Assembly: GCA_000004985.1 (NCBI GenBank)
Contig: GG738859.1
Direction: 5' to 3' (one strand)
Length of the DNA: 64,000 nt
Source: Naegleria gruberi
Lineage: Eukaryota
Shown here: positions 3 through 60,800 of the stretch, one piece after another
How positions within the stretch are numbered: position 1 is the stretch's first letter
Layout of the letters: each line of letters starts with the position of its first letter
Translations under genes and position numbers: made by a program
The notes under the pieces: generated by a model
Told to the model about the DNA's origin: nothing
Databases searched by the model: none
What the model saw: only the letters and a program-made list of their open reading frames with translations

Positions 3-2021
3 AAGGATAGTTACAATATTAAGGAAGCTAATAGTAATGAATTTCCAACAACAATTTTATCTCCAGATATTGGAAATGTTTGCTTTGCTAGCTCTAAAAC
101 TGGAGTTTGCTTTACTCTTGAATCATTTGCCAAGATTTATGCTGATCAAAAAAAGAATTTCAATTACAAGGAATTTGCAAAGAGATTATGGGGAGATTTA
201 TATTTTGATAGAAGCACTAGAGGATTTTCTAAAAATCCAAATGAACTCTCAAAACGATCCTTTGTAGAATTTATTTTGGAACCATTGTACAAGATTTATT
301 CACACATTGTTGGTCAAGATCCAGAAGAGCTGGATGGAACTTTGAGAAAGATTAGTGTAAAACTCAACAGCCAAGAATTAGCTCTTGATCCTAATCCATT
401 AATGAAATGTACATTTAGAGCTCTTTTTAATTCTCCATCAGGTTTTGTCGACATGTTGGAGAGATACATTCCTGCTCCAAGTAGTTCTTATGGTGGTAAC
501 AAGACAAAGGTTGAAAACTTTTACACAGGAACTTTGGACACTAAAACGGCTAAAGATATGATTAATTGTGACTCTAATGGAGATTTAGTAATTTACATTA
601 CCAAATTATTCCCTAGGCCAGACTATTCTTCATTTGATGTTTTCGGTAGAGTAATGAGTGGTACCCTCAAAAAAGGTGATGCTGTTAAAATTTTGGGAGA
701 GGGATATACACCATCTGATGAAGAAGACATGTCAATTACTGATGTTTCTAATTTATATATTTATAATTCAAGATATAGAATTAATGTTGATAGTGTTAGT
801 GCTGGTAATTGGGTTTTAATAGAAGGTATTGATGCAACCATCAGCAAGACATCTACATTGTACAAATCTACAGCAAGCTCCAATACTTTTATTTTCAAAC
901 CTTTAACATATATGAACCAATCAGTGATGAAAATTGCTGTTGAGCCACTCAAACCATCAGAATTACCAAAAATGATGGAAGGTCTGAGAAAGATCAATAA
1001 GAGTTTCCCACTTGTCACAACAAAGGTTGAAGAAAGTGGTGAACATATTCTTCTTGGTACCGGTGAACTCTATCTGGATATTGTTATGCACGATTTGAGA
1101 ACATTATATTCAGGCATTGAAATTAAGGTATCTGACCCTTCGGTAACTTTCTGTGAAACAGTAGCTGAAACATCATCTGTAAGATGTTCCTCACAAACAC
1201 CAAATAACAAGAATCAACTTGTAATGGTTGCTCAACCTTTGGAAAGAGGACTAACTCAAGATATTGAAAGTGGAAGAATCAATCTCGACAAGATGGGCAG
1301 CACTGTCAGAGAGGATATTATGAAAACAAAATATGGCTGGGATGAATATACTACAAGTAGAATTTGGTCATTTGGTCCAGAAGTTAATGGTCCAAACGCA
1401 CTCATCAATGAAACATTTGAAGGTGAAGTTGACCAGAAACTCTTATCCACTGTAAAGGATTCAATTGTACAAGGTTTCAGATGGAGTACAAAGGAAGGAC
1501 CACTCTGTGAAGAACCAATTAGAAATGTTAAATTCAGACTTTTAGAAGCTTCGATATCTGAAGATAGAATTGCCAGAACTGGTGGTCAAATCATTCCAAC
1601 AACACGTAGAGTTTGTTATTCAAGTTTCCTCTCTGCTACTCCACAATTGATGGAACCAATTTCACTTGTTGAAATTCAATCACCATTAGAAACACTGGAA
1701 ATTGTCCACAAAATTTTGGAAAGAAGAAGAGGTCATGTCATTGAAGATGAACCAAAACCAGGTACACCTCATTACATTCTCAAAGCTTATGTACCAGCCA
1801 TTGATTCATTTGGTCTTGAAACTGATATGAGATTGAGTACTAAGGGCAGATCATTCTGTCTCTCTAAATTTGACCACTGGGATATTGTTCCTGGTGATCC
1901 ACTAGATACTTCCATTACCATTGCACCACTCGAGCCAAGTCCTTTACATGCTCTTGCACGTGAATTCCTTCTCAAGACAAGAAGAAGAAAGGGACTTTCT
2001 GATGAAATTAATTTTAATTAA
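3..2021 (+). CDS. SNU114: U5 snRNP 116 kDa GTPase (Snu114/EFTUD2), C-terminal ~670 codons; the 5' end lies upstream of the window
   Basis: One frame is open from nt 3 to the TAA at 2019-2021. The translation aligns along its whole length with EF-2-like Snu114: NVCFASSKTGVCFTLESFAKIY, SDPSVTFCETV, EPIRNVKF, GGQIIPTTRRV, SFGLETDMR, FLLKTRRRKGLSDE. No intron is needed inside the window. Confidence 0.9.
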   Translation, partial: KDSYNIKEANSNEFPTTILSPDIGNVCFASSKTGVCFTLESFAKIYADQKKNFNYKEFAKRLWGDLYFDRSTRGFSKNPNELSKRSFVEFILEPLYKIYSHIVGQDPEELDGTLRKISVKLNSQELALDPNPLMKCTFRALFNSPSGFVDMLERYIPAPSSSYGGNKTKVENFYTGTLDTKTAKDMINCDSNGDLVIYITKLFPRPDYSSFDVFGRVMSGTLKKGDAVKILGEGYTPSDEEDMSITDVSNLYIYNSRYRINVDSVSAGNWVLIEGIDATISKTSTLYKSTASSNTFIFKPLTYMNQSVMKIAVEPLKPSELPKMMEGLRKINKSFPLVTTKVEESGEHILLGTGELYLDIVMHDLRTLYSGIEIKVSDPSVTFCETVAETSSVRCSSQTPNNKNQLVMVAQPLERGLTQDIESGRINLDKMGSTVREDIMKTKYGWDEYTTSRIWSFGPEVNGPNALINETFEGEVDQKLLSTVKDSIVQGFRWSTKEGPLCEEPIRNVKFRLLEASISEDRIARTGGQIIPTTRRVCYSSFLSATPQLMEPISLVEIQSPLETLEIVHKILERRRGHVIEDEPKPGTPHYILKAYVPAIDSFGLETDMRLSTKGRSFCLSKFDHWDIVPGDPLDTSITIAPLEPSPLHALAREFLLKTRRRKGLSDEINFN

Positions 2022-3914: not shown

Positions 3915-6725
3915 TCAATTAAAAATTTTGATCAGTGTTTCTGTTAGTGACCTTTGAGTTTCATCCAACAAATTACCATTCGATCCTTCTATTGGAATAT
4001 GAACAGTCAACAATGAAACTGATTCAATCAGCTTGTTTGAATTTTCAGAAAGTAAAAAGTTAATGAGAGGAATCTTGTTAATCTGACAAGCTGTTGCGAT
4101 AGCTAATGTGCTTGGAGTTGGAGAACTTCCCACTAAAATAACAGCCGTGGCTTGTTGTTGTTGAATGGACATGTCAAAGTGATAGATAGTTTCAGCTACA
4201 GAACTCAGATTTGCTTGTGCTGTATCAAACTCTCTACTCAACATGAAATCATTAAATGATTTGATTTTTGTAATCTTGGATAATTCATCCAAATTAATTT
4301 GGGCTATAGATTGATCAGCAACTCCTAAACTATACTGAATGGCGAATGGTAGCTCTAAACTACTTAACATTGTAAGAATAGTTTTTCCTTCTTCTTGATT
4401 ACTCAAGAATACGAAAGCAGTTCTCTGATCATTTCCCCGGTAGGAGTACATTAATCTATTTCCTCTCTGAGTTTCTTTTTGAATAATAAGAGATCTGCCT
4501 TCACTGGTACCTTGTACTCTACCAGTTGTATCTCCATTATTACTGATATTCATGTAATCACCTGAATATGAATTTGTTTCCAGTGTTGGAGAAACTGGCA
4601 TGACGAAACATCTAATATTGGCATACTTTCTCGCATTGGAACAAAGATGCCAATCCTCTCCAGTGGCCCACGAGAACATCTTTTCCCTGAACATTAGTTT
4701 AACCCACTCTCTCTCCATGAACCAACTACCACCGACAACATCAACCTCAATGATATGTTCTGAACCTGAGACAGGTCCAAAAAAGTAATCCTCAGCACTT
4801 GGAGTTCCCTTCGTTCCAAGAATTCCTCTATAATTATTGGTATTGATGGTGTGCATGGCTGCTTCGAAAAATCTCCTTTCAGGAATGCAATCATCATCAA
4901 AAACAGCAAGATACCTTGTTGGTGATTGTATTGCCAATTGAAATCTGCCAAAATATTTCAGCTGCATCTCACCCTTGTTAACAAATAGTGAAATATTGTT
5001 GGAGGAGGCAAGTAACTTGGCCTCTTGAATTTCTTTTTCAATTTCGTCAGCTTTAGGTGAGGCAAAAAAGACCATCCAAATAACTTTAGGTTGATGAGTT
5101 TGTGAGAGGAGAGCTTGCATCCATCTCTTCACAAGACCTGTTCTCTTATACAAACCAACGACAGCAGTGACACCAAATTCATCAGAGGTGTTCCTTGTTG
5201 GAACGTATGTACTTGGTAATGAGAATAGTTCTTGCATGGTGAGTTGCTCCTTTGGTTTTGATCTTTCCAATAAATCCTTCTTTCTAATTTCGAATGGAAG
5301 GAAATTTTGAGTGTAAACACTTTCTGCAATTGAATCTTGAATGAATTGAGTGGAACATTCTCTTGAATCTGGTAATTTGGAGGTGATAAAATCACGAACA
5401 ATTCTTGAAATTCTCATACTAGCTTGTCCATCTCCAAATATGTGTTTCGAAAGAACTTGTTTCGAATTTTGTGAATCCTTGATGGCGTCAGTCATGGCTT
5501 TCACAATGTCAAGATAATTAACACCAATCTTTTTAATAGTACCAATGTAAATTCCCTCTGGTCTCTCAGTAGTATCTCTCATGAGAATAACTGGCTTTCC
5601 AATACTTGCCGATTCCTCTTGGATACCTCCAGAGTCAGTAACAACAATGTCAGCTTCACTAATCACATGTGGGAAGATATCATAGGCAATTGGATCCACC
5701 AATTGGACGTTATCCAATGATGATAAGACTTCATTGACTACACTCTTAGCATTTGGATTTGGATGTACAGGTAGAATGACCATAACATTCTTTCCAAATG
5801 TATTGGAAATCCTCTTGATGGCATTACACATTTCTTTAAAGTGTGGAATGTTTTCTCTTCTATGCATGGTAACAAGAATTACTATTCTATGTGATTCAAC
5901 TGCTGATGATGATGTAGTAGTAGATGAAGTGGTATCAAGAACATTGCTTTTAAAACTTTTAATGTTTTGAAGCAATTCTGGAATTATCTTTGGTGTGGTG
6001 GACTTTAAAGAATAGAACGAATCAATGCCAGTGTTACCAGTTACATAGACATGCTGTGGACAGATACCTTCTCTAACAAGAGCTGCTTTAGAGAAATCGG
6101 TTGGGGCAAACAAGAGACTGGCAAACGAGTCAATCATTTTACGATTCAACTCCTCTGGGAATGGACTATTGAAATCATAGGATCTCAATCCAGCTTCTAC
6201 ATGTCCAACTGGTATCTTTAAGTAACTGGCAGCAAGGGCAGCAACAAGAGAAGTAGTGGTGTCGCCTTGAACCAATACCATGGAAATTGGTCCTTGCCTT
6301 TCAAATTCTAAACTAATCTTTTGGAAGGAGAGGGTGAAGAAAGAGGAGATACTTTGATTGGGAGTCATTAACTTCAAGTCAATGTCCACATGTTGATGAA
6401 ATACACCAAGTGTTTGTTTCAAAATTTCGCTATGTTGACCAGTGCTAAGAACAATCACCTCCAATTCAGAGGAATAGTTTGACTTGAGATGTGAAATTAG
6501 TGGAGCACATTTGATAGCCTCTGGTCTTGTTCCCAACACAATTAGTACTCTTGGCAAGTTGTTTTTGTGTGGAATGATAATACCTTCTCTCTTTCCATTC
6601 GAATTTCTGACCAACATGTTATCTGAATCAGCTGATGACTTGTTAATGTTCAATATATGAAAGAACACAAAGCTAAACACCAATAATGTTGTGCACACAA
6701 CACTGAGTTTGAAAATCTTACTCAT
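3915..6725 (-). CDS. Type II membrane protein: UDP-N-acetylglucosamine 2-epimerase domain fused to a GT-A-fold (DxD) glycosyltransferase-like domain plus a ~230-aa C-terminal region of unknown function
   Basis: 936-aa ORF from the ATG at 6725. N-terminal hydrophobic signal anchor (LSVVCTTLLVFSFVFFHIL). Epimerase motifs VLIVLGTRPEAIKCAPL, HVEAGLRSYD, PFPEELNR, VTGNTGIDS, VTDSGGIQEES. Downstream: a Rossmann-like start (VTAVVGLYKRTGLVKRWMQALLSQT), a DDD motif (YLAVFDDDCIPE) and TGEDWHLC. Confidence 0.8.
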   Translation of the reverse strand: MSKIFKLSVVCTTLLVFSFVFFHILNINKSSADSDNMLVRNSNGKREGIIIPHKNNLPRVLIVLGTRPEAIKCAPLISHLKSNYSSELEVIVLSTGQHSEILKQTLGVFHQHVDIDLKLMTPNQSISSFFTLSFQKISLEFERQGPISMVLVQGDTTTSLVAALAASYLKIPVGHVEAGLRSYDFNSPFPEELNRKMIDSFASLLFAPTDFSKAALVREGICPQHVYVTGNTGIDSFYSLKSTTPKIIPELLQNIKSFKSNVLDTTSSTTTSSSAVESHRIVILVTMHRRENIPHFKEMCNAIKRISNTFGKNVMVILPVHPNPNAKSVVNEVLSSLDNVQLVDPIAYDIFPHVISEADIVVTDSGGIQEESASIGKPVILMRDTTERPEGIYIGTIKKIGVNYLDIVKAMTDAIKDSQNSKQVLSKHIFGDGQASMRISRIVRDFITSKLPDSRECSTQFIQDSIAESVYTQNFLPFEIRKKDLLERSKPKEQLTMQELFSLPSTYVPTRNTSDEFGVTAVVGLYKRTGLVKRWMQALLSQTHQPKVIWMVFFASPKADEIEKEIQEAKLLASSNNISLFVNKGEMQLKYFGRFQLAIQSPTRYLAVFDDDCIPERRFFEAAMHTINTNNYRGILGTKGTPSAEDYFFGPVSGSEHIIEVDVVGGSWFMEREWVKLMFREKMFSWATGEDWHLCSNARKYANIRCFVMPVSPTLETNSYSGDYMNISNNGDTTGRVQGTSEGRSLIIQKETQRGNRLMYSYRGNDQRTAFVFLSNQEEGKTILTMLSSLELPFAIQYSLGVADQSIAQINLDELSKITKIKSFNDFMLSREFDTAQANLSSVAETIYHFDMSIQQQQATAVILVGSSPTPSTLAIATACQINKIPLINFLLSENSNKLIESVSLLTVHIPIEGSNGNLLDETQRSLTETLIKIFN

Positions 6726-26625: not shown

Positions 26626-29349
26626 ATGTTGTCATCATCGACGATAAAACAACAAGCCATACCACCCTTTCATAATCATACGGAATTTTCTTCTCATCTT
26701 CGAATAATTGCAGAGGTTGATAAACACTCTAATAAGACAAAGTTGTATCTATACTCAATGCTGTCTAAGAACAAGATAGTCATCACACCTGATGTCCCTA
26801 AAACCATTAGTGAATTTAGAGATGAACATATGGATGTAGGCATGGTGTTTGCAGTTGTGGGCACATCTTGGTGCGGTAAATCGACTATTGCCAATGTGGC
26901 CAGACAATTATTTGGACCAAAGTATGGTCGTAATGAGAAGGCAGTTTTTGGTGATCTGATACGAGGTTCTATTGTCAAGTCCTTCTCTCAACTCTTAAAT
27001 TGTCTCAGAAACTTTTTGGACCAAGAAGATTTTGTTAAAGAGCATCAACGCACCATTCATGATAGGTTAATAGAGTTAAAGATCTTTAAACTTAAAAAGA
27101 GTTTGCAAACACCAAACTTTACATCCTCTGGTTGCGAGCCTAGAGGTCTCCACAGTGAATATGAAGCTCAGAAGAGTACAATAATAGCAACACCAATAAT
27201 GAAAGAGGAATTTGAACAATTGAAACGAGAATTGATTCAATATTTTGCTGAAAGAAATGAGGTTATAGATCGATCACTTGATATTCATTCAGACGTAAAT
27301 CGTGTGGTGAAACTCTTAGAGAGCTTATGGAACGACCCTATTGTACAAATTGTCTATGCCCTAAATCATAGAATTCCTAATCTCAACGTATCAACTAACC
27401 TAGATTACTGGATACCAAGACTTAAAAAGATTTTCTCAGCTGGCTTTTCTCCTAAATCTAAAGACATTCTCCAATCCCACCCAGGCCATAATGGTATCTA
27501 TGCCCATCATCCTATGGAATGCAAGTTTCCAAAAAATCAAACTGAGACTGTGACTGAAATTCCACTCTTTGAAGCTAAGGAAATACCATTTGTAGTGTTG
27601 GATGTTACAGACGTTAGTCGTAAATTGGAACATGTTATAGATCTTGTAACAGATATTGTATTTGTAGTTTCTATGGATGACTATTATCTTATAGACGAGA
27701 GAAATATGGACAGATTATCTGATGCCATTCAAAAATTTAGAAAACTTTGCGAGGACATGAAAGAAAGCTTCTTATCGAGAAGAATTCCACTCAAAAACAT
27801 TACACTTGTTTTTAACAAGTTTGATATATTTTCAGACAAGGCCTCCAAATCTGAGGACCCTTTTATCAAGTTAGAAACATCCCACCCAGATATTTATACT
27901 TATTATGGTACTGATTCAGGAGCTTCCCAGCACCTTATCAGGTCCCTCATTGACTATTTTGTAAACATTTACGATTCATACTTTAGAGATATAAGAGAAT
28001 TTCCAATAAGCAAACATCAAATTGAAACTTATAGACTAACATCGAGTTTACTGGCTGGTACTATACTGAACATTTGTGTAACATCTGCCACTAACAAAAG
28101 TAACATGGAAGATTTTTGGAGATTTGTGATTGGTCGTGAAAAAGGCGTTGAGCAACGTTCTTATTGTACAGACGGTTCATGGATACCGTTCAGAATGTGT
28201 AGATCATCTCTTCATGAGCAGTATGGAATCTCTTACCTTAATTGGGGAGAGAACTTCTTCATACATGGTAATAACCAACCATTTAGATTTGCTGTGCACG
28301 AAAGCCTTCTCTTACTGAGATGTCCACAGCTGGCTACTATAATAGGGTTAAACGAGAAGAACAAGAAGGCTGTAAATACTTATGAACCAGTTCCAACAAT
28401 AATGGTGGACTTTGATGTTGGTGTTTTAGCCGAATTGATACGGAGGATTTATGATGGCTTTAGTGTTTTTGATTTACAAAAATTCATTCAACACTATCCT
28501 TCTCTCCTTCCTGTTGTTATCAAGAAGCCAAAGAAGCTAACCAAAAAACCAAAGCTACTTCGACCAGTTATTCTAAAATACAAAATGATCAAGGCAAAAA
28601 CTATTAACAAGAACATTATATATAGATTTAACCATCCTCAATTTACTGATATAGTTAACTATGTTGACTTGATTGGAAATAATTTTTCTGCCCTCTCTGG
28701 TAGACATGACATGCTGTTATTCCACCAAAGTGATAACATTTCGAGTTGCAAGTTCATGCTATCGATGAGATTGCCAGGATTCACTCTTGAGAAAGATTAC
28801 TATGTACTTGTTCCATATATCAAAAAGCCCTCATATTTTAATGTTTTGAGAATACTTAACCACGAACGAGACGTTTGCATTGATAACTGGAAAGAGCTGA
28901 TAGAAATGATTTTCATCAGCAAAATGTGGCAGTTTGAAGACGATTCTATATTAGTAGAGACTTTGAGAAAAATGTTTAAAAATGTAGTTTCAGCTGATAA
29001 TGTTCACCAAATGATTCCACTGTTGTCAAATGACTTTATAGATTTCTCTCAACTTGATGACCCTGTACAAGGCAAGGTTTCAGAGAGAACCCTTCTAGAT
29101 AACCTACCAACAGAAATAATCTATGTTGTGTCTTCCTTTTTGTATGGTGTCTTTGATACAAATCCACAAAACTCTCTAATTGATCAAGACTACTTGAGTC
29201 TTATTTGTTGCCTGAATCATACCTCCTTCTTTAGGTTCTTTAAAGAGATTCCTAAGGACAAACTCAAACAATTTATTTGGAAAACTAAGTTTACCAAATT
29301 TACCCTATTTTTGAAAGAGTGTAATTCTTTCCTAGAAAAACACAAATAA
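26626..29349 (+). CDS. Divergent G-alpha-like GTPase domain fused to a ~450-aa C-terminal extension of unknown function
   Basis: Open from 26578; the first ATG is at 26626. P-loop VVGTSWCGKSTIANVARQLFGP resembles GAGESGKSTIVKQMKIIH. NKxD is LVFNKFDIFSDK and TCAT is ICVTSATNK. Switch II reads VVLDVTDVSRK instead of DVGGQR, and the arginine-finger region reads NQTETVTEI. Confidence 0.65.
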   Translation: MLSSSTIKQQAIPPFHNHTEFSSHLRIIAEVDKHSNKTKLYLYSMLSKNKIVITPDVPKTISEFRDEHMDVGMVFAVVGTSWCGKSTIANVARQLFGPKYGRNEKAVFGDLIRGSIVKSFSQLLNCLRNFLDQEDFVKEHQRTIHDRLIELKIFKLKKSLQTPNFTSSGCEPRGLHSEYEAQKSTIIATPIMKEEFEQLKRELIQYFAERNEVIDRSLDIHSDVNRVVKLLESLWNDPIVQIVYALNHRIPNLNVSTNLDYWIPRLKKIFSAGFSPKSKDILQSHPGHNGIYAHHPMECKFPKNQTETVTEIPLFEAKEIPFVVLDVTDVSRKLEHVIDLVTDIVFVVSMDDYYLIDERNMDRLSDAIQKFRKLCEDMKESFLSRRIPLKNITLVFNKFDIFSDKASKSEDPFIKLETSHPDIYTYYGTDSGASQHLIRSLIDYFVNIYDSYFRDIREFPISKHQIETYRLTSSLLAGTILNICVTSATNKSNMEDFWRFVIGREKGVEQRSYCTDGSWIPFRMCRSSLHEQYGISYLNWGENFFIHGNNQPFRFAVHESLLLLRCPQLATIIGLNEKNKKAVNTYEPVPTIMVDFDVGVLAELIRRIYDGFSVFDLQKFIQHYPSLLPVVIKKPKKLTKKPKLLRPVILKYKMIKAKTINKNIIYRFNHPQFTDIVNYVDLIGNNFSALSGRHDMLLFHQSDNISSCKFMLSMRLPGFTLEKDYYVLVPYIKKPSYFNVLRILNHERDVCIDNWKELIEMIFISKMWQFEDDSILVETLRKMFKNVVSADNVHQMIPLLSNDFIDFSQLDDPVQGKVSERTLLDNLPTEIIYVVSSFLYGVFDTNPQNSLIDQDYLSLICCLNHTSFFRFFKEIPKDKLKQFIWKTKFTKFTLFLKECNSFLEKHK

Positions 29350-29451: not shown

Positions 29452-32408
29452 ATGAAAACGATCATTGTCAGGTTCGAAGACATCACAATACCTCCTAAAG
29501 TGTTGGAAAAGTCATTCAATGATTGGGAACACTTGGCACCTTTTGAATTGTTTGAAGAATTGCAGAAATATCTTCGGGATGAATGTTTTATTCATGTACA
29601 CCAATTTTCAAAGATGATACTAAAATCGGAGGATAATGAGTATGAAATATCATCTCGTATTGTTCATCAAGTTGGCAATGTACAACTGTCAATCCAAAAT
29701 TATTATATTTCATGGTATAACTTATTCGACAAGGAAATTAGAGTTAGACTTTGTCCACTTTATCACCAACAAGAAGAGGATTCTATCGTTCCAACCGATG
29801 AAGTGTGTTTGCATTTGGGTTGTCACTCATTTACAGAAAGACAATTGTTAGAGGTGAAGGAATCGGAATTAATTGAAGAAAGGAGAGGCTATTTGTGTTA
29901 CTTATTGCAAGTAATATTTGAGGATGGAAATCATGTTGCTTCTTCTTCTGTTAAAATAGATCAATCCTACCTCATGGATACATTAGAAAAGTTTCCTACA
30001 GAGTTTGAGGCTTTTTGTAAATGGCTCATTGTTAACAAGTTGAAGAGAACAAGAGCCTATTTGAAGGAAGATCGTTATATTATTGTAAATGGAAGATATG
30101 AAATGTGCTTTCACTTAATACATGGAGGAAGATTAAGTAATCCACTCAACAATACTTCGAACGAAAGTAATGAAAGAAATCAACTGTGGATTGGGAAAGA
30201 TTTTAAAAACAAGTGTAAGGTAGTTATGAAATTTGGAATCAGAACTGAAAATGAGTTTGAAAATCTACAAAAAATCAAACATAGTCATATTATTCAAACT
30301 TTAGATCATTATCCCTCTAATGAAATACAGGAAAATGCTTTTGTTACTTTTCTATATAAGGGGCTCAATTTGAGACAACTTATTGAATCAAAGGATAATA
30401 ACCTCACATTTAAAGAAATTAGAGAAATTGTATCGCAAATTGTTGATGCCATTGCTTATCTTCATGATATGGGAATAGTTCACAAAGACATCAAACATGA
30501 AAATATTCTTATTGAGGAAAATTTGGACAAGATTTGGCTTGTAGATTTTGATGAGAATTCGTATTCAGGTGGTTGTACAATTTTTTTAAATCAACCTCCA
30601 GAAAAAGTATTATCCATGAAAGCAGATATTTGGGCATTAGGGGTACTTGTCTACCAATTAATAACAAAAGATCTGGAGACTAATATTCAAAAAGATTTTC
30701 TCAGTGGACGCATACAGATTGGACATCATATTGACATTCTAATTGAACAATCAAATGATACTAATCTCCAAACGTTAGCGAAGATTGTAAGAACGTGTTT
30801 ACAAGAAAAACAATCAAGACCCACAATATATGGGATTTATGAAATATTGTATGAAGAAGAACTTGAATTATTGGAAGACATAGAATTTGAAAGTGATATT
30901 GATGAAGAAATAGATTTATCAGAAATTGATAGGGATGATTTGATATCTCAACTATCTACTAATGGAATGAAATTGAGATATATTCCTTATTCAAACCAAG
31001 ACATGGAAATGGTAACAGCAGCTGTCAACTGTAATTGTAATGCACTGGAGTTTACCTCACCTTTATTGAAAGAGTCAGATGATTTCATTGATAGCATCCA
31101 AATACCTCCAGAGTGTGTAAAGTTGTTAGGAGTTGATAAGCAAATACGAATCATTAAGAAAGAACCATCCCTCTTCCATAGTTATAGACAACTAGTTCTA
31201 CAAGCTGTAAAGCACGACAGCTCACTTTTTCATCATTTAACAGAAGAATTGAAGAGTGACTCTGATATTTTTATTGTAGCCATCGAGAATGGATTGGAAA
31301 ACTATGAGCAATACTTGAAATATCATGCATCTTCCAAAAGTGTGGCATTGGTTGTGGTCGAATTATATCCCTCTCAACGAGAGCACTTTATTTACGATGT
31401 TTTTGAGGAAATTTATAAGGATCATTTGGATGCAATTAACAAAAACCCATTAGAATTGAGAAAAGCACCAAAACCCTTAAAGTCTTATTCTGATTTTGTA
31501 ATACAGATAGCTAAAAAGCAAATAGGCGTTCTAGAGTTTGCTTCTGATATTCTAAAATCAGATAGAAATTCATTTTAGAAGCTTCCAAGATATCACTTAG
31601 TGCTTTACAATATGCCAGTGCGAGTCTTCAATCAGATGAAGAGTTTATTGATAAAATATACAAAATAAGATGTCACGATCTGGATGCTTATCAATTAACT
31701 GGAGAAGAGAAAGAAATTTTCATGATTGCTATCTCAGGAAGGTTTAGTTTTATTCCTGAAAAATTCAAGAAGGACAGAGCTTTTGTTATGAAAGTACTGA
31801 AGAAAAGGGGAAGGATTCTAGAGTATATTCCTCACTTTTCATCTGATAAAGAGGTTGTTATGGCATCCATAATGCATTACTCATACGATCTTGAGTATGC
31901 AGACTATTCTTTACGTTCAGATGAAGAAATTGTACTGTTGGCAACCACATTGAATGGTGAGTGTTTTAGATACGCAGATTCAAAACTACAGGAAAATAGA
32001 GAATTTGTTAACAAGGTTGTCTCAATTAGTGGGCGTGCAATAGCTCATGCAAGTGAAATTTTGAAACAGGACAGAGAGATAGTGTTAGCTGCTGTTTCTC
32101 AAAATGGAAATGCATTGGCTTATGTTAATCATTTTAAGGATGATATGCAAGTGGTACTACGAGCAGTTGAGTCCAATGGTGATTCATTCCAGTTTGCCGA
32201 TCCCAAATTACAAGGTGATAAAGAGTTTGTTTTACAGGTTGTGAAACAAAACGCAAAAGCCCTTTTATTTGCATCATCCAAGTTAAAAGCCGATAGGAAT
32301 TTTATTTTGAAAATTGTGCAAACTAATGTATTCGCCTACCCTTACATTGGAGAGTACTTTAAAAACGATGAAGAAATTAAAGCAGTTTGGCAAAGTGCAT
32401 CTCAATAA
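29452..32408 (+). CDS. Protein kinase (HKDIKHEN / DFD) fused to C-terminal DUF4116 repeats; the ORF is interrupted by a 1-nt frameshift near 31573-31577
   Basis: Frame 1 ORF 29452-31578 holds the kinase domain (KVVMKFG, HKDIKHENILI, LVDFDEN, ADIWALGV) and then DUF4116-like repeats. A second frame is open from 31566 to 32408 and continues the same repeats (ALQYASASLQSDEEF, DREIVLAAVSQNGNALAYV). The switch sits at the tcaTTTTag run. Confidence 0.65.
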
Positions 32409-38788: not shown

Positions 38789-41626
38789 TTAGGTTCTTGG
38801 TTTATGACTATTATATTTTCTCTTATTTGGTAAAGATGAGAGTCCTTCATAGGCTTTCACTTTGCTTATTCTTACATTGAATCTTCTCAACATTTCATAC
38901 TCATCTTCTTCACTTTCTGACTCGCTTTCAGATTCTTCTTCACTGCTACTGCTTTCCACAACTTTTCTTGGACGACCAACTTTTCTCTTTGTTTCACTTT
39001 GTTCATCCTTTCTTGGTCGACCAACTTTTCTTTTTGGTTCCTCCTCGTCCTTCTTGGTTTCTTTTTTCACGTTTTGTTGTTCGTCCTTTCTTGGTCTACC
39101 AACTTTTCTCTTTGGTGTTTCATCTTCGCTTTCAGAAGATGATTCTTCCTTAACTTTGGTATTGTGAACGATTCGTCTTGGCTTTGAATCTGCTGATTCT
39201 GATTTCACACTTGAACTACTACTACTAGTTGGCTTGGAAGATGTTGATTCCTTCTTAGTGACTACCTCTTTTGGTTTGGTTTCAGTTTCGTCCTTTCTTG
39301 GGCGACCAACCTTTCTCTTTGGAGCCTCTGGTTCTGGTGTTGTTTTTGCAGATGATGATGATGAAGAAGTAGAAGAAGGTTTTACAGGCTTTGGTTGAGA
39401 TATAGGTGTTTTTGGTGTGGTGAGAATTGGCTTGGCTGAACTAGTTGACTTTGATTCTTTCTTAACAGTACTAGGAGCAGGAGTTGTCTTCTTTTCAACC
39501 TTTTTCTCCTCTACCTTCTTTGGTCTTCCAACCTTTCTCTTTTCTTCCTCTACCCCTTTAGGAGTTGTAATAACAGAGTCACTCTTTCTTGGTCTACCAA
39601 CTTTTCGTTTAGCATCGGATCTAGCTTCTTTGTCATAGTCTGATTCTGATTCAGATTCACTGCTACTTTCCTCAACCTTTCTCTTTTTTGTTTGTTGTGT
39701 TTTCTTGTCTGTTGATTCATCCTTCTTTGGTCTTCCAACTTTTCGTTTGGCTTCAGATTTGGTTCCTTCAGTTCTAGCTTTAGACTTTTCCTTACTATCA
39801 CTACTTGAAGATGATTCAGATTTTCTTGGCCTACCCACTTTTCTCTTTTTCTCCTCTTCATCTGTATTCTTCTTTGGTCTGCCAACCTTTCTCTTTGATT
39901 TGCTCTTTTCATCATCAGATTCCTCATCATATGAAAGTTCAGAGTCTTCATCTTCCTCACTTTCGCTTTCAGATTCACTCTCCTCCATAGCTTTCTTTGG
40001 AGGTCTACCTCTTTTCTTTTTAGTTTCTTCTTCTGGTTTTTCTGCCTTCTTTTTGGCAGTTCTTGTCACTCTAGGTTGTGTTGTCTCAGTGAGTGATGTA
40101 GATATTCCAGCATTTTTACATCTTCTGGTTTTGAATTCGGTATGTCTCATTATTTCTCCTTTTTGAGCCTGTTCATACATTTTAGTCATGAGAGCTCGTT
40201 CGTACACAGTCAGACCAAACTCATCCAATTGTGGGGCATCATCCTTCTTTTGTGTCTCTTCTAATTGTCTTTCTATTGATAAAAATTGTCTGAAACGTTT
40301 CTTTTCAGTCTTTCTAATATTACGAATTAAAAAAGTATTTCCAAATTTTGCAGAGTCAATAACTTCTTTTGGAAGCTTTGAGCTGTCTTCCAATATTTTC
40401 AGTGTGTACAAAGTTCTTTGTTTGAATTTTGATTCAAGTTTGTGAGCTCTTAATTTTTTAGCTTGTTCACTATCCATTTGTGTTGATTTTTCCTTAGCTT
40501 CTAGCAAGGACATATCTTTTGATGTAATTGTTCCTCTGCAATTTGCACTTCCACAATAACATTTTTGGAAGGAAACACCATAACATTCCATTGCATAGTC
40601 AAAAGTAACTTCTTCTCCTTTTTCAATATCTCTAAGTGCAAAAACACCTATCCTAGATTGATGGCCAACTGTCCATTTTTGCAATACAGAGTTTGGATCA
40701 CAACTGTGATTAATAAACCTAGCATTATTACCCTTTTTTGAGGCATCAATAATTTGATTGGTACCAACTGAAAGGAAATAATAGTGGCGTTCACCATCAT
40801 AAGCTTCTTGTCTTTGTTTGTAAATTTTTTCATCTAATACTTCTCCTACATATTCAATAATAAAAGTTCCTTTTGAAATTTTCTCTTTAGCAAAAACTCC
40901 AAACCCCTTTTCACCAGCTCTTTTAACTTCTATTTTTTTCCAACTCTTTTTTTGAAATCTATTATTTGTGCATTTAGATCCACAACTACAATAGCCGATT
41001 ACACACTCCATGCACAATAATCTATTCACACAAAATTCACCACAGTGATCATCACCTGAAATATCTCCCTTTTTTGAAGGACCACAAGTACACATAATAA
41101 TGTCATCATCAAATAAATTTTTCCAGGCATAAACTGTACTATCACCTAAATAAATATTTTCATCAATCTTTTTAAATTGTCTGCTGTCGTAAGCTGCTTT
41201 TTCGTCATCTTCATCTTTTTGTTGATTTAATTCAATTTTCCTCTTCTTTTTTGGTAATTTAACTGTTTCTTCCGATGTTTTGTTTTTCTCATCCTTACTT
41301 TCAAGTCTATTATTTCCAGAAATAAATAATTCTTGTAATAACATGGCATCTTAAAAAATTAAATAAATTAAAATTAATAATAAATTACCTTCCATATCGT
41401 TCTTGGTATGTGATGCAATAGATTCTTGTTGTTCAACACCAGTAGATTTTTTATCATCTTTGTTTTCCTCTCCAGTTGATGACACTACATTTGATGATAC
41501 ACTATTTGGATTGGATAATTCTGATTGTTGGGTATTATCGCTTGGTGGAAGTATCTGATGATCTTCCGTCGTCCCTTCCTTGTTGGGCGATGATGACGAG
41601 GTTTGGCCACTTTCCGTTTGGCTCAT
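38789..41626 (-). CDS. SET-domain (AWS-SET-postSET, SET2/NSD/ASH1-like) histone lysine methyltransferase with a long C-terminal AT-hook repeat region; 2 exons
   Basis: Exon 1 about 41626-41389, intron about 41388-41350 (GTAATT...AAG, 39 nt), exon 2 about 41349-38789. SET motifs GFGVFAKEKI, NHSCDPN, FDYAMECYG. PostSET CYCGSANCRG. Then at least 10 KRKVGRP(R/K)K AT-hooks lie in Ser/Glu/Lys-rich sequence. Confidence 0.75.
38940..40010 (-). repeat. Coding tandem repeat: iterated AT-hook motif (KRKVGRPRK/KKD) inside the SET gene
   Basis: The nucleotide unit cctttcttgg(t/g)c(g/t)accaactttt ctctt recurs on the plus strand. It produces spurious antisense ORFs reading GRPTFLF. Confidence 0.6.
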
Positions 41627-57605: not shown

Positions 57606-57895
57606 ATTTCATTCCATGAATACACATTAAGGTGGTAACCTCCACAACTATTAACCATTCATCCGTACTAAAAAATCCTTCAAAAGAGAAAGCGTTGAGT
57701 TTATTCTACTGCAGTGAGGAGGTTATTTTTTCGTACACCAGTATATATTGAGGCTTCACGAAATTGATTGATAACCATTGCAATACAGACATTAAGTTTA
57801 CAACAAAGATTGCTTGCGTTTCAGAGGCCAAAAACTGCGCAACAAAAATCTCGCTGAGCCAACAGACCAAGCTAAATAAAAACAATTTAAAAAAA

Positions 57896-60800
57896 ATGCA
57901 CAAACTAAGCAAGGTCTTCAACGTTTCTTGCAATCATATTGCTAAACAGCAAGCCATTCGTCAATCTTGCTATAAAAAAACAAATATTATTTCATTGTTG
58001 GAAAAGGAAGGACGAAAGCAAGGATTCCATTGCACTGTTTTTAATTCAAGACTTAGAAAATATAGTGAATCGGGTGAAACACCAACAATTGGTATTCGTA
58101 GAGAAGATAAAAATGTTTGGGAACGTAGAGTACCTCTCACACCATCCCAATGTGAAGAATTGATCAAGGAACATGGTATTCGTATTGTAATTCAACCATC
58201 AACAACTCGTGCTTTTGGTGATGAAGAATATAGAGAAGCTGGCTGTGAGATTAATGAAGATTTGAGTATTGCCCAAACAATCTTGGCAGTTAAAGAAGTT
58301 CCAGCCCAATTATTAATTCCGAACAAGACTTACATGTTCTTCTCTCACACAATTAAAGGACAATGGTATAACATGAATATGTTGGACACTATTTTAGAAA
58401 AGAAAATTAGATTGATCGATTATGAACGTATTGTGAAGGAAGTTGAAATTCCAGGAACTGAAAAAACAGTAGAAGAAAGATTGGTAAGATTTGGTCCTTT
58501 TGCTGGTAATGCTGGTGTTATTGATACACTTCATATTCTCGGAGAAAGATTATTGACTCAATATGGATATACAAGTCCTTTCCTCAGCATTTCATATGCT
58601 AGAAATTACATTAGTCTTGAAATTTGTAAACATGCCTTGAATGAAATTGGCAGAAAGATTAGTCAATATGGTATCAACAAGGATTTATTCCCAATGACCT
58701 TTGTTATGACTGGTAAAGGTGGTTCTGTTTGTCATGGTATGAAGGAAATGATTCAACAATTGCAACCTCCAGAATTAACACACAAAACAGTTGAATTTTT
58801 GAGAACACCACAAGAATTGAGAGCTTTGTGGGAAAAGAAAGCTAGAGGTGAAGTAACCAAGGAAGATTGTAGAAAGATTTATATTTTAATTTGTGGTCCT
58901 GAATATATGGTTAAACACAAGTCACAAACTCAACCATTTGACAAGTATGATTACTATGCTAATCCACAAGATTACGAACCAATTTTCCACGAAACAATTA
59001 TTCCATACACTAAAGTTTTGTTAAACGGCATGTATTGGGATGCCAGATATCCAAGATTAATCACTAACAAGCAAGCTAAACAATTAATTGATCAAAATAG
59101 ATTCCCACTCATTTGTGTTGGTGATGTTTCTTGTGATCCTGGTGGTTCTGTTGAATTCTTGACTAAGACTACTACAATTTCCTCTCCTGTCTATGTAAAT
59201 AATATCAAGGAAGACAAGATTCTTGACGATACTGTAATTGGTGAAGGTGTTGCAATGCTTGCTGTTGACCACTTGCCAGCTGAATTCCCAAGATCTTCCA
59301 GTAGTTTGTTTGGTTCTCACCTTTTCCCATTCATTCCAGATCTTGCTAGATCATTTGTTACTATGAGTTCTCCATTAGAAACTCAAATGAAATATTTGCC
59401 AACTGAGCTCAGAAAGGCTGTAATTACATCAGGTGGTAAATTGACACCAAACTTTGAATATATTGACAAGATTAGAGGTCCAAGATCTAGCAGAGTTTTG
59501 ATTTTGGGATCAGGATATGTTGTTCCTCCAATTATTGACTACTTGATCGATAATCCAAGAGATATTGCCACCGTTACCGTTGCCTCTGATAAGATTTCTT
59601 CTGAATTCAAGAGCAAGTATTCTGATTCTAAGAAATCTGTTGAATTTGTTAGTAATCTCAATGTTACTAATGATAGTCAATTGCTTGCTGATTTGATTAG
59701 CAAATGTGATATTGTACTTTCATTGGTTCCAGCTCCACTCCATCCAATTGTTGCTCAACAATGTTTAAAGTATGAAAAACATCTCGTCACTGCCAGTTAT
59801 ATTAGTCCAGAAATGGAACAATTGAACGAACAAGCTAAAGAAAAGGGTTTGCTCTTCATTAATGAAATTGGTTTGGATCCTGGTATTGATCACATGTGTA
59901 TTATGAAGACTCTCGATCAAGTTGTTGGTCAAAGAGGTGGTAAGGTTGAAAGCTTCAAGAGCTTCTGTGGTGCTCTCCCAGCCCCTGAATCATCTGATAA
60001 TCCTCTTGGTTACAAGTTCAGTTGGTCTCCAATTGGTGTTTTGAGAGCTTCTCAAAATCCATGTTTATTCATGAAGGATGGTGAAGTTGTCAATGTTACT
60101 GATGGTAACAAGCTCACTTTCCTCAATGAAAAGGTTGACGTCAAGTTTAAGGGATTCAATTTTGAAGTTATTCCAAACAGAGATTCCCTCAAGTACATTT
60201 CCAAGTACAAGTATCTGAATGAAAAGGACTTGAAGACCATGATGAGAGGAACCCTCAGATTTGGTGGTTTCTGTGAAGTTTTCAGATTACTCACTCTTTT
60301 AGGATACCTCAATCAAAGCACTGTCATTCCAGCTGATGCCAAGACTTATCGTGATATTTTCTGTACTCAATTGGGTGTTCCAGTTTCTACTGATTTGAAG
60401 ACCATTTCTGCCAAGGTCACCAGTCTTTACAATGAAAAGATTGATGCCATGTTCTCTAACATTACTGACAAGTACCAACAAGCTATTTACAATAGACTTA
60501 AGGCTAACGCTCAAACTGATGTTTCTTTCGCTCTCAAGAGTGTAAAACAACTTGGTTTGCTTTCTACTGATTCATTTGGTGAAAAACCAAAGAGTGGATT
60601 ACTCCTTGATTTGATCTGTACTCACCTTGAAAAGGAACTTGCCCTCTCTGCTGATGACAAGGATCTCAACTTTATGGTCCATGAATTTATTGTAAACTAT
60701 GAAAAGGAAAATGTTAAGGAAAAGATTACCTCAACTGTTTGTGTTTATGGTGACAAGAAGGAAGGAACTGCCACAAGTAGAACTGTTGGTTTACCTGTTG

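What the first reader, a model, noticed from the sequence alone, without database searches (positions are those of the whole stretch)
26626..29349. G-alpha-like GTPase with degenerate catalytic machinery fused to a large novel C-terminal domain
The nucleotide-binding elements of heterotrimeric G-alpha are recognisable: P-loop GxxxxGKST, NKxD as NKFD, TCAT as TSAT. Switch II reads DVTDV instead of DVGGQ, so the catalytic Gln is absent. No arginine finger appears in the switch I equivalent. The myristoylation/palmitoylation N-terminus is missing. The protein continues for about 450 residues with no recognisable domain. This resembles plant extra-large G proteins in being a GTP-binding but hydrolysis-impaired G-alpha with an extension, yet the extension sits at the other end. 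It could be a constitutively GTP-bound scaffold or a novel signalling protein.
Basis: partly seen in the sequence, partly recalled or inferred. Interest (0 to 1): 0.6.

Follow-up and report, generated by a model that had tools for sequence, protein, structure and literature searches.

The report
G-alpha pseudo-GTPase fused to BTB domains
This Naegleria gruberi gene encodes a G-protein alpha domain that keeps its nucleotide-binding pocket but has lost its GTP-hydrolysis and switch residues. Its long tail is not a new domain: it holds one BTB domain, a probable second one and an F-box-like motif, the same layout as RhoBTB ubiquitin-ligase adaptors.

Summary
Window 26626-29349 (+) is one intact 907-codon ORF, identical to N. 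gruberi XP_002678998.1 ("predicted protein").

**G-alpha domain.** Residues 72-465 match Pfam G-alpha (E 6.9e-39).
- Kept: G1 (GTSWCGKST), G4 (NKFD), G5 (TSAT).
- Lost: Arg finger (now His285), Mg-binding Thr (now His288), and DVGGQ (now DVTDV).

**Not a pseudogene.**
- Full-length orthologues exist in N. fowleri and Willaertia; the N. lovaniensis one is split into two gene models.
- A sister clade includes Acrasis kona.
- dN/dS is 0.096 over 207 codons.
- No member has DVGGQ. The Acrasis clade has canonical switch I and DVGSE, Willaertia has DIAGE, and Naegleria is fully degenerate.

**The "novel" C-terminal region is wrong.**
- Then a lysine-rich linker.
- BTB2 is probable (hhalign 61%).
- Then an F-box-like LPxEI..I.SFL helix and a helical tail.

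This is the RhoBTB layout (atypical GTPase, two BTBs, helical tail) with G-alpha in place of Rho.

**Best reading.** A non-hydrolysing G-alpha module attached to a cullin-type adaptor scaffold. The biochemistry is untested. It is a new variant of known kinds, of moderate interest.

The parts
26626..29349 (+). Complete single-exon CDS (907 aa plus stop) of the G-alpha-BTB protein, N. gruberi NAEGRDRAFT_47887
   Evidence: ORF list. 100% identity to XP_002678998.1 over 907/907 residues.
26626..26838 (+). N-terminal region (aa 1-71). No Gly2 and no canonical alpha-N helix. Short motif I-P-P-F/I-V-P-F-F is shared within the Naegleria/Willaertia clade.
   Evidence: Family alignments. Only 25% identity to N. 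fowleri. The single-sequence AF2 model is uninformative.
26839..28137 (+). G-alpha-like domain (aa 72-504) with Ras-like and helical-domain parts
   Evidence: Pfam PF00503 E 6.9e-39, aa 72-465, profile positions 21-313 of 333. PDB sequence hits are G-alpha chains. BLASTP to Gi-alpha-1 E 2e-11.
26860..26886 (+). G1/P-loop GTSWCGKST (aa 79-87). The GxxxxGK[ST] core is kept. Glu43 of Gi-alpha-1 is replaced by Trp.
   Evidence: Alignment with Gi-alpha-1: G40, G45 and K46 are invariant. Family alignment.
27463..27498 (+). Switch I equivalent DILQSHPGHNGI (aa 280-291). The Arg finger is His285 and the Mg-coordinating Thr is His288.
   Evidence: Relatives Willaertia (DILNTRIPTSGI) and the Acrasis clade (RVKTTGI) keep Arg and Thr.
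27601..27636 (+). Switch II equivalent DVTDVSRKLEHV (aa 326-337). Gly202 is Thr, Gly203 is Asp and the catalytic Gln204 is Val. It is 3 residues shorter than canonical, and Trp211 is lost.
   Evidence: N. fowleri has DISKLDKITHV, Willaertia DIAGERTERIKL, and the Acrasis clade DVGSERNERKKW.
27814..27825 (+). G4 motif NKFD (aa 397-400)
   Evidence: N269, K270 and D272 columns are invariant in the alignment with Gi-alpha-1. N397, K398 and D400 are invariant across nine family members.
28081..28092 (+). G5 motif TSAT (aa 486-489), preceded by a Naegleria/Willaertia-specific insertion
   Evidence: T486 and A488 are invariant in the family. The pattern matches TCATDTKN of Gi-alpha-1 by inspection. 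MAFFT did not co-align it.
28138..28230 (+). Conserved connector (aa 505-535, ...GVEQRSY..GSWIPFRMCRSSLH) between the G-alpha alpha-5 helix and BTB1. This is the most conserved segment between N. gruberi and N. fowleri (71%).
   Evidence: Alignment.
28231..28506 (+). BTB/POZ domain 1 (aa 536-627), with the signature FRFAVHESLLLLRCPQL ... LAELIRRIYDG
28507..28698 (+). Lysine-rich, low-confidence linker (aa 628-691; core KKPKKLTKKPKLLRPVILKYKMIKAKTINK). A basic stretch occurs at this place in all family members.
   Evidence: Alignments. pLDDT is 21-40. A role as nuclear-localisation or membrane-binding signal is inference only.
28699..29034 (+). Probable BTB/POZ domain 2 (aa 692-803), with DMLLFHQ..CKFMLSMRLPGF ... 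SYFNVLRIL ... ELIEMIFISKMW ... NVHQMIPLL
   Evidence: hhalign of the 8-sequence family alignment against BTB references gives 61.5%, E 7.8e-5, 93 columns in the expected register. With 5 sequences it gave only 3.7%. No Pfam or PDB sequence hit. Helices at aa 734-801 have pLDDT 61-89. Identity to N. fowleri is 54%.
29089..29145 (+). F-box-like first-helix motif TLLDNLPTEIIYVVSSFLY (aa 822-840)
   Evidence: T822, L827 and P828 are invariant in the family. Sub-threshold Pfam F-box-like hits occur at the aligned site in P0007, P0035, P0036 and P0037, E 0.003-0.2. hhalign against F-box references gives 81%, E 1.2e-5, but over 17 columns only.
29146..29346 (+). C-terminal helical tail (aa 841-907). 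Together with the F-box-like motif it shows 66% identity to N. fowleri.
   Evidence: No database match.

Best explanation
The gene encodes a member of a family seen only in Heterolobosea and unassigned metagenome contigs, which I call G-alpha-BTB.

**Shown**
- The N-terminal half is a genuine G-alpha domain.
- In the Naegleria lineage it has become a pseudo-GTPase. The phosphate, Mg-Ser and guanine contacts (G1, G4, G5) are kept. Every element needed to hydrolyse GTP or to sense the gamma-phosphate is replaced: the Arg finger, the switch-I Thr, and the Gly-Gly-Gln of switch II.
- The alpha-5 helix, whose free end normally contacts a receptor, is internal here. It runs directly into a conserved connector and a BTB domain.
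- The C-terminal half is BTB1, a lysine-rich linker, a probable BTB2, an F-box-like helix and a helical tail of about 65 residues.

**Inferred**
- By analogy with RhoBTB and other PF00651-type BTB proteins, the C-terminal half acts as a cullin-RING (most likely Cul3) adaptor or dimerisation scaffold.
- The non-hydrolysing G-alpha module serves as a nucleotide-stabilised binding or autoinhibitory domain, not as a timed switch. It would not be coupled to receptors, G-beta-gamma or RGS proteins.
For: **G-alpha homology and motif states**
-.

**Motif history across the family**
- G1, G4 and G5 are kept wherever the region is present in the available sequence.
- The catalytic Gln is absent in all members. 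The Acrasis clade has DVGSE, Willaertia DIAGE, N. gruberi DVTDV and N. fowleri DISKL.
- Switch I is canonical (RVKTTGI) in the Acrasis clade. The Arg and Thr are kept in Willaertia and lost in Naegleria.

**Selection**
- dN/dS is 0.096 (dS 1.0) over 207 codons against a related Naegleria contig.
- Intact 905-1064 aa orthologues exist in N. fowleri and Willaertia; N. lovaniensis is split into two models.
- An environmental N. gruberi contig is 99.8% identical in DNA.
- Constraint sits in the C-terminal modules rather than the switches. Identity to N. fowleri is 12-36% in the beta2-beta3 and switch II regions. It is 54-71% in the connector, BTB2 and tail.

**BTB1**
- Pfam BTB above cut-off in four relatives.
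- PDB profile hits are only SPOP and KEAP1 BTB chains.
- hhalign 92%.
- Foldseek top 14 hits are all BTB domains.

**BTB2 and F-box-like motif**
- BTB2: hhalign 61.5%, E 7.8e-5, 93 columns.
- F-box-like motif.

**RhoBTB layout from the literature**
- Rho GTPase domain, two tandem BTB domains and a helical tail of about 100 residues. BTB1 binds Cul3. The GTPase domain is atypical and autoinhibitory (PMC1257465, PMC10413933).
Against: - No Pfam BTB or F-box hit in the window protein itself.
- BTB2 does not match BTB1 significantly.
- The F-box-like match covers only one helix.
- A Cul3-contact phi-x-E motif is arguable in N. gruberi (L-N-E after CPQLATIIG) but is not conserved across the family. 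This is by inspection only.
- Nucleotide binding, Cul3 or Skp1 binding and expression were not tested.
- Asp329 at the Gly203 position could exclude GTP altogether.
- No G-alpha-domain structure could be obtained. The single-sequence AF2 model had pLDDT 33.5.
Confidence: 0.5

Rival explanations
1. The BTB domains serve only as oligomerisation or partner-binding modules with no cullin involved, as in the BTB-ZF, T1 and KCTD12 types. The protein would be a multimeric scaffold that places a nucleotide-bound G-alpha-like surface at a membrane or in the nucleus through the lysine-rich linker.
For: - BTB domains often act without Cul3 (PMC1257465).
- A lysine-rich linker is conserved in position in all members.
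- Cul3-contact residues are not demonstrably conserved (inspection).
Against: - The best sequence and fold matches are to Cul3 adaptors (SPOP, KEAP1, KBTBD2, KLHL22) rather than to T1/KCTD or Skp1-type BTBs.
- An F-box-like motif also points to cullin-RING ligases.
Confidence: 0.22
2. The protein is a receptor or decoy for G-beta-gamma. The G-alpha domain would hold G-beta-gamma permanently and deliver it to a Cul3 ligase, as KCTD5 does in animals, or would sequester it.
For: - The BTB protein KCTD5 with CUL3 ubiquitylates G-beta-gamma (PMC11047111).
- Acrasis-clade members keep a canonical switch II (ERNERKKW) that could bind G-beta.
Against: - In the window protein, switch II is shortened by 3 residues and lacks Trp211. 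Switch I is rewritten, and no alpha-N helix is recognisable.
- These are the two G-beta contact surfaces according to established G-alpha structures (my own knowledge).
Confidence: 0.08
3. It is still a working GTPase switch that uses non-canonical catalytic residues, for example His285 or an external GAP supplying them in trans. The BTB half would be its effector or output.
For: - G1, G4 and G5 are kept under selection.
- Some GTPases work without the canonical Gln (general knowledge).
Against: - The Gln, the Arg, the switch-I Thr and both switch-II Gly residues are lost together.
- The replacement residues differ between N. gruberi and N. fowleri (DVTDV against DISKL; SHPGHN against YHDLQQ). 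This argues against a conserved alternative catalytic site.
- These segments show the lowest conservation in the protein.
Confidence: 0.08
4. It acts through SCF rather than Cul3. The F-box-like helix would bind Skp1, and the BTB-like domains and G-alpha domain would be the substrate-binding part.
For: - The LPxEI..I.[FS][FY]L motif has its T, L and P invariant in all nine members.
- hhalign against F-box references gives 81%.
- Pfam F-box-like E 0.003-0.2 in four relatives.
Against: - Only the first of three F-box helices matches, over 17 columns.
- All Pfam scores are below the gathering cut-off (at most 17.7 against 24.3).
- A variable insertion of 11 to about 60 residues follows the motif.
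Confidence: 0.08
5. It is a decaying pseudogene or an annotation artefact.
For: - Degenerate catalytic motifs.
- Annotated only as "predicted protein".
Against: - The ORF is 907 codons long in a 34% GC genome.
- The architecture is conserved across Naegleria, Willaertia and the Acrasis clade.
- dN/dS is 0.096.
Confidence: 0.02

Closest known systems
RhoBTB proteins (RhoBTB1/2/3; Dictyostelium RacA)
   Same: - Same order of parts: an N-terminal atypical GTPase domain with doubtful or no GTPase activity, a linker, two BTB domains, and a helical tail of about 100 residues (PMC1257465, PMC10413933).
- The BTB matches here are to the same PF00651 long-form class that binds Cul3.
   Different: - The GTPase domain here is a heterotrimeric-type G-alpha with a helical domain, not a Rho domain.
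- The long basic insertion lies between the BTBs rather than inside BTB1.
- An F-box-like motif follows BTB2.
- No sequence similarity to RhoBTB was detected: no non-G-alpha protein outside the family appeared among the 30 hits.
- Cul3 binding is untested.
- Found in Heterolobosea only, whereas RhoBTB occurs in animals and Dictyostelium.
Canonical heterotrimeric G-alpha subunits (Pfam PF00503), including the N. fowleri G-alpha subunits studied biochemically (PMC9283941)
   Same: - Homologous domain scoring 134 bits.
- Helical-domain region aligned.
- G1, G4 and G5 motifs present.
   Different: - No Arg finger, catalytic Gln, switch-I Thr or switch-II Gly-Gly.
- No lipidation site or alpha-N helix.
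- The C-terminal alpha-5 tail is not free.
- About 400 extra residues at the C-terminus.
Plant extra-large G proteins (XLG1-3)
   Same: A G-alpha-like domain with degenerate catalytic motifs joined to a large extra region. A Sphagnum protein of 862 aa is a weak hit (P0013, named). That it is an XLG is my own guess.
   Different: - The XLG extension is N-terminal and Cys-rich (my own knowledge). Here the extension is C-terminal and built of BTB modules.
- No specific sequence relationship beyond the shared G-alpha domain.
BTB Cul3 adaptors acting on G proteins (KCTD5-CUL3-G-beta-gamma)
   Same: Links a BTB/cullin module to heterotrimeric G-protein components (PMC11047111).
   Different: - KCTD5 has a T1-type BTB and binds G-beta-gamma in trans.
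- Here a G-alpha domain is covalently fused, and its G-beta contact surfaces are degenerate.
Acrasis-clade G-alpha-BTB proteins (Acrasis kona "G alpha-2 subunit" P0037, metagenome proteins P0007, P0034-P0036)
   Same: Same full architecture, alignable end to end: G-alpha, BTB1, basic linker, BTB2, F-box-like motif and tail.
   Different: They keep canonical switch I (RVKTTGI) and near-canonical switch II (DVGSERNERKKW), so they may still undergo GTP-dependent conformational change. The window protein does not keep these.

Membership tests
Heterotrimeric G-alpha (PF00503) | Sequence match to the family profile above the curated threshold | tested here: met
   134.3 bits against a cut-off of 48.8, E 6.9e-39.
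Heterotrimeric G-alpha (PF00503) | Nucleotide-binding motifs G1 (GxxxxGKS/T), G4 (NKxD) and G5 (TCAT-like) | tested here: met
   GTSWCGKST, NKFD and TSAT. G5 is assigned through the family alignment and the sequence pattern.
Heterotrimeric G-alpha (PF00503) | Catalytic and switch residues: switch-I Arg and Thr, and switch-II DxxGQ | tested here: not met
   His285, His288 and DVTDV.
Heterotrimeric G-alpha (PF00503) | Ras-like plus all-helical domain fold | tested here: inconclusive
   The Pfam alignment spans profile positions 21-313, including the helical-domain region. The AF2 single-sequence model failed, pLDDT 33.5.
Heterotrimeric G-alpha (PF00503) | Lipidated N-terminus with an alpha-N helix, and a free C-terminal alpha-5 tail for receptor coupling | tested here: not met
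   The N-terminus is MLSSST, with no Gly2. The alpha-5 helix continues into 400 further residues.
BTB/POZ (PF00651) | Profile match above the gathering score | tested here: inconclusive
   No hit in the window protein. The aligned segment of relatives scores 32.7, 23.4, 22.8 and 22.0 bits (cut-off 20.5), with one at 19.2. hhalign of the family BTB1 alignment gives 92%, E 6.4e-7.
BTB/POZ (PF00651) | BTB fold | tested here: met
BTB/POZ (PF00651), second copy | Profile similarity of aa 692-803 to BTB | tested here: inconclusive
   hhalign gives 61.5%, E 7.8e-5, over 93 columns. No Pfam or PDB sequence hit. No significant match to BTB1.
Cul3 substrate adaptor | Binding of BTB (phi-x-E loop and 3-box) to the Cul3 N-terminal domain | not testable with these tools
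   Only fold neighbours suggest it. A motif is arguable in N. gruberi but not conserved across the family (inspection).
F-box (PF00646/PF12937) | Three-helix F-box that binds Skp1, with a profile match above threshold | tested here: not met
   The best Pfam F-box-like score in relatives is 17.7 bits against a cut-off of 24.3. hhalign covers 17 columns, the first helix only. It is therefore called F-box-like, not an F-box.
RhoBTB | Rho-family GTPase domain at the N-terminus | tested here: not met
   The GTPase domain is G-alpha. It works like RhoBTB in layout but is not a member.
Plant XLG | N-terminal Cys-rich extension preceding the G-alpha domain | tested here: not met
   Only 71 residues precede the G domain and they are not Cys-rich. 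The extension is C-terminal.

The most novel reading that the evidence does not exclude
Heterolobosean amoebae independently built a "G-alpha-BTB" analogous to RhoBTB. In this reading a heterotrimeric-type G-alpha domain, hydrolysis-dead since the origin of the family, gates or targets a cullin-RING ubiquitin ligase. That would wire G-protein-type nucleotide sensing directly to protein degradation without receptor, G-beta-gamma or RGS. Naegleria would have taken it further, to a pure pseudo-GTPase scaffold.
Probability: 0.3. Interest if true: 0.7.

Novelty: new variant of a known kind. Interest (0 to 1): 0.5.

Why it matters
- G-alpha subunits are nearly always stand-alone proteins of about 350-400 residues, working with receptors, G-beta-gamma and RGS proteins. 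A conserved family in which G-alpha is fused to BTB and F-box-like modules would be a second, independent case of a GTPase domain fused to tandem BTB domains, after RhoBTB. This would suggest a general design logic.
- The family also gives a natural series: canonical switches in the Acrasis clade, intermediate in Willaertia, and full pseudo-GTPase in Naegleria. That series could be used to study how a G domain turns from a switch into a scaffold.
- An orthologue exists in the pathogen N. fowleri (FDP41_000149). G-protein pathways there are being examined as drug targets (PMC9283941).
- I found no paper describing this protein or this architecture. The key comparative paper (Anantharaman et al. 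2011, PMC3396428) could not be read, so prior mention cannot be excluded.

Tried and rejected
- **Word-indexed homology search with the full protein:** nothing found. Exact-sequence lookup: not on record. The exhaustive HMMER search was needed to find the family.
- **Single-sequence AF2 of the whole protein:** pLDDT 33.5, unusable, so the G-alpha fold was not confirmed structurally.
- **afdb50 fold library:** not installed.
- **Anantharaman et al. 2011 (PMC3396428):** not held.
- **Pfam on the isolated C-terminus and on BTB2 segments:** no hits.
- **PDB profile searches with the BTB2 and tail alignments:** only chance-level hits such as MJ1557, HinP1I, BET5, CLOCK, and FBXL5 at E 1.4.
- **hhalign of BTB1 against BTB2:** not significant, 0.4%, so an internal duplication is not shown.
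- **Pseudogene reading:** rejected on the dN/dS value and the conserved orthologues.
- **XLG membership:** rejected, because the extension is at the wrong end and of a different kind.
- **G-beta-gamma-trap idea:** judged unlikely for this protein, because both G-beta contact surfaces are degenerate.
- **Contig L003:** it carries SISPA primer sequence at both ends. Only positions 110-715 are homologous, and only those were used for dN/dS.


Full report
**What is at the coordinates**

Window 26626-29349 (+) holds one uninterrupted ORF of 907 codons starting at ATG 26626. The ORF listing entry begins 16 codons upstream, at a TTG. The window is 31-38% GC and densely packed with long, mostly intron-free ORFs carrying eukaryotic domains. 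These include protein kinase, DUF4116, SET with AT hooks, G-patch with FtsJ, EF-2 domains and LKR/SDH. The protein is 100% identical over 907/907 residues to Naegleria gruberi XP_002678998.1 / EFC46254.1 / NAEGRDRAFT_47887, annotated only as "predicted protein". So the window is N. gruberi, and the gene model is already public but uncharacterised. I found no paper that mentions it or its N. fowleri orthologue.

**The G-alpha observation**

Pfam G-alpha (PF00503) matches aa 72-465 at 134.3 bits, E 6.9e-39, against a cut-off of 48.8. The 60 PDB sequence hits listed (of 164) are all G-alpha chains. From that alignment and a MAFFT alignment with Gi-alpha-1, the motifs map as follows.

| Element | Gi-alpha-1 | This protein | State |
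|---|---|---|---|
| G1 / P-loop | G40...G45, K46 | G79-TSWCGKS-T87 | kept; G40, G45, K46 columns invariant |
| Switch I | DVLRTRVKTTGI | DILQSHPGHNGI | Arg178 is His285; Mg-binding Thr181 is His288 |
| Switch II | DVGGQRSERKKW | DVTDVSRKLEHV | Gly202 Thr, Gly203 Asp, Gln204 Val; 3 residues shorter; Trp211 lost |
| G4 | NKKD | NKFD 397-400 | kept |
| G5 | TCAT | TSAT 486-489 | kept |

- The G5 assignment rests on the family alignment and on the shared pattern T.AT...N...F. MAFFT did not co-align it, because of a clade-specific insertion.
- The N-terminus is MLSSST, so there is no myristoylation Gly.

**The family**

An exhaustive HMMER search of 1.84 billion representatives found only 30 proteins at E up to 1e-3. 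Apart from ordinary G-alpha proteins at E 1e-6 or weaker, the real relatives are these.

| Relative | Source | Length | Note |
|---|---|---|---|
| FDP41_000149 | N. fowleri | 905 aa | full-length orthologue |
| C9374_006103 + C9374_006104 | N. lovaniensis | 233 + 625 aa | one gene split into two models |
| ABK040_010113 | Willaertia magna | 1064 aa | full-length orthologue |
| Two metagenome fragments and one SRA-derived fragment (P0005) | environmental | short | one fragment is 99.8% identical in DNA to the window |
| P0007 | JGI metagenome | 863 aa | second clade |
| P0034 | JGI metagenome | 905 aa | second clade |
| P0035 | Logan | 788 aa | second clade |
| P0036 | JGI metagenome | 1139 aa | second clade |
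| P0037 | Acrasis kona, "G alpha-2 subunit" | 1086 aa | second clade |

All of them align end to end with the window protein. The named members are all heteroloboseans. I saw no member outside that group, although the metagenome sequences are taxonomically unassigned.

**Motif history**

- G1, G4 and G5 are kept wherever that region is present in the available sequence (several metagenome models start downstream of G1).
- The catalytic Gln is absent in all of them.

| Lineage | Switch I | Switch II |
|---|---|---|
| Acrasis clade | canonical RVKTTGI | DVGSERNERKKW |
| Willaertia | DILNTRIPTSGI (Arg and Thr kept) | DIAGERTERIKL |
| N. gruberi | SHPGHN (Arg and Thr lost) | DVTDV |
| N. fowleri / N. 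lovaniensis | YHDLQQ (Arg and Thr lost) | DISKL |

That test fails.
- No orthologue has DVGGQ.
- The gene is under purifying selection. dN/dS is 0.096 (dS about 1.0) over 207 codons spanning G5, BTB1 and the linker, against a related Naegleria contig.

Identity between N. gruberi and N. fowleri varies strongly by region.

| Region | Identity |
|---|---|
| beta2-beta3 | 12% |
| switch II | 36% |
| BTB2 | 54% |
| aa 406-485 | 59% |
| C-terminal tail | 66% |
| connector after alpha-5 | 71% |

Selection thus acts mainly on the C-terminal modules and on the nucleotide pocket. It does not act on a switch mechanism.

**The C-terminal half is not novel**

Pfam finds nothing in aa 500-907 of this protein.

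*BTB1 (aa 536-627).*
- The aligned segment of relatives hits Pfam BTB. P0007 scores 32.7 bits (E 8.8e-8). P0036, P0037 and P0035 score 23.4, 22.8 and 22.0. P0034 scores 19.2. The cut-off is 20.5.
- A profile of the C-terminal family alignment finds only SPOP and KEAP1 BTB chains in PDB, 22 of 22 hits, best E 0.013.
- AF2 with the 6-sequence alignment gave a moderate model: mean pLDDT 51.6, with 61-78 over most of BTB1 and 61-89 over the helices of the second module.
- Foldseek returns BTB domains as the top 14 hits, probability up to 1.0 but E at least 0.03.

*BTB2 (aa 692-803).*
- The segment (DMLLFHQ..CKFMLSMRLPGF...SYFNVLRIL...ELIEMIFISKMW...NVHQMIPLL) has the BTB pattern by eye.
- With eight sequences, hhalign gives 61.5%, E 7.8e-5, over 93 columns in the right register. 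With five sequences it gave 3.7%.
- It has no Pfam or PDB sequence hit and no significant match to BTB1.
- I call it probable.

*F-box-like motif (aa 822-840).*
- The segment TLLDNLPTEIIYVVSSFLY has its T, L and P invariant in all members.
- Sub-threshold Pfam F-box-like hits occur at the aligned site in four relatives, E 0.003-0.2.
- hhalign against F-box references gives 81%, E 1.2e-5, but only over the first helix, 17 columns.

*Linker.* Between the BTBs lies a lysine-rich segment of low model confidence, present at this position in every member.

**Mechanism**

*Shown.* It is a G-alpha homologue whose pocket motifs are retained while the hydrolysis and switch residues are gone. It is fused through a highly conserved connector to BTB modules, and the whole is under purifying selection.

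*Inferred.*
- The free alpha-5 C-terminus, the alpha-N helix and the switch II surface are missing or rewritten. Receptor, G-beta-gamma and RGS coupling in the canonical manner is therefore unlikely. This rests on established G-alpha structural knowledge.
- The order of parts is atypical GTPase, BTB, BTB, then a helical tail. This is the layout described for RhoBTB, where BTB1 binds Cul3 and the GTPase domain is atypical and reported to autoinhibit (PMC1257465, PMC10413933).
- I therefore think the most likely function is a cullin-RING (probably Cul3) adaptor or scaffold. Its G-alpha module would be a constitutively nucleotide-loaded, or nucleotide-independent, interaction or autoinhibitory domain.
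- Confidence is about 0.85 for the architecture and about 0.4 for the ubiquitin-ligase function. I give 0.5 overall.

*Open.* Whether the bound nucleotide is GTP is unknown. Asp329 replaces the Gly that contacts the gamma-phosphate.

**Rivals**

- BTB used only for oligomerisation or targeting: 0.22.
- A trap for G-beta-gamma, or delivery of it for degradation, by analogy with KCTD5-CUL3 (PMC11047111): 0.08. This is more plausible for the Acrasis clade than for this protein.
- A non-canonical active GTPase: 0.08. The lack of conserved replacement residues between Naegleria species argues against it.
- An SCF route through the F-box-like helix: 0.08.
- A pseudogene: 0.02.

**Comparison and novelty**

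- It belongs to the G-alpha homology family by sequence, but it fails the functional hallmarks of a G-alpha subunit.
- It contains BTB domains.
- It is not a RhoBTB (no Rho domain) and not an XLG (the extension is at the other end and of another kind).
- I found no description of a G-alpha-BTB architecture. The most relevant survey could not be read, so prior mention cannot be excluded.
- I rate it a new variant of known kinds, with moderate interest (0.5). It is a clean, conserved, lineage-specific fusion with a clear evolutionary series from near-canonical to pseudo-GTPase, but no functional data exist.

Noticed in passing
window 29452-31578 (+) and 31722-32408 (+): The two genes immediately downstream both carry DUF4116 repeats. 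One is a 708-aa protein kinase followed by 4 DUF4116 repeats. The other is a 228-aa protein made of 6 DUF4116 repeats (E 6.5e-65). This looks like a local pair of related repeat genes of unknown function.
   Followed up: no
window 3915-6725 (-): A 935-aa ORF fuses a UDP-GlcNAc 2-epimerase domain (E 2.5e-92) to a family-2 glycosyltransferase domain. This architecture looks bacterial and is sitting in a eukaryotic genome.
   Followed up: no
window 38789-41344 (-): An 850-aa protein with AWS and SET domains plus 8 AT-hook motifs. The region 38-42 kb has a strong AT skew (-0.20 to -0.23), unlike the rest of the window.
   Followed up: no
window 276-2021 (+): The ORF encodes EF-2/EF-G domains II-V but no GTPase domain and starts at a TTG. 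The N-terminal G domain is probably in an upstream exon or before the window start.
   Followed up: no
window 57764-60973 (+): A 1069-aa bifunctional lysine-ketoglutarate reductase / saccharopine dehydrogenase-type protein, with AlaDh_PNT and Sacchrp_dh domains.
   Followed up: no
L001:400-560 (JGI metagenome 3300057222 contig): The gene caller split relative P0007 in two. The P-loop exon (...GVNWGGKTT) is followed by an intron of about 78 nt, GTATGT...TTTTCTAG. After the intron the reading frame continues (a + tt = Ile) into TKTAKILL. The true protein is therefore longer than the 863-aa model and has an intact G1.
   Followed up: partly
L003:1-17 and 721-737 (ENA ERZ27284557 contig): Both contig ends carry the random-amplification (SISPA) primer GTTTCCCAGTCACGATA as an inverted repeat. 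Only positions 110-715 are homologous to the window. An in-frame TGA lies directly upstream of the homologous part, so the contig may be chimeric or contain an intron.
   Followed up: partly
N. lovaniensis proteins P0006 and P0002 (no window coordinates): The N. lovaniensis orthologue is annotated as two adjacent genes, C9374_006103 (233 aa, N-terminus and P-loop) and C9374_006104 (625 aa, the rest). Together they align colinearly with the single N. gruberi and N. fowleri proteins. This is probably a mis-split gene model.
   Followed up: partly
window 27499-27561 (+), aa 292-312: N. gruberi has an insertion of about 18-19 residues (YAHHPMECKFPKNQTETVTEI) right after switch I. It is absent from N. 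fowleri, N. lovaniensis, Willaertia and the Acrasis clade.
   Followed up: no
L004:676-2382 (JGI 3300062347 contig, upstream of P0034): Three short called genes lie just upstream of relative P0034 on the same strand, and two of them have G-alpha Pfam hits. They are probably further exons of the same gene, since P0034 starts inside the G domain, or a tandem G-alpha gene.
   Followed up: no
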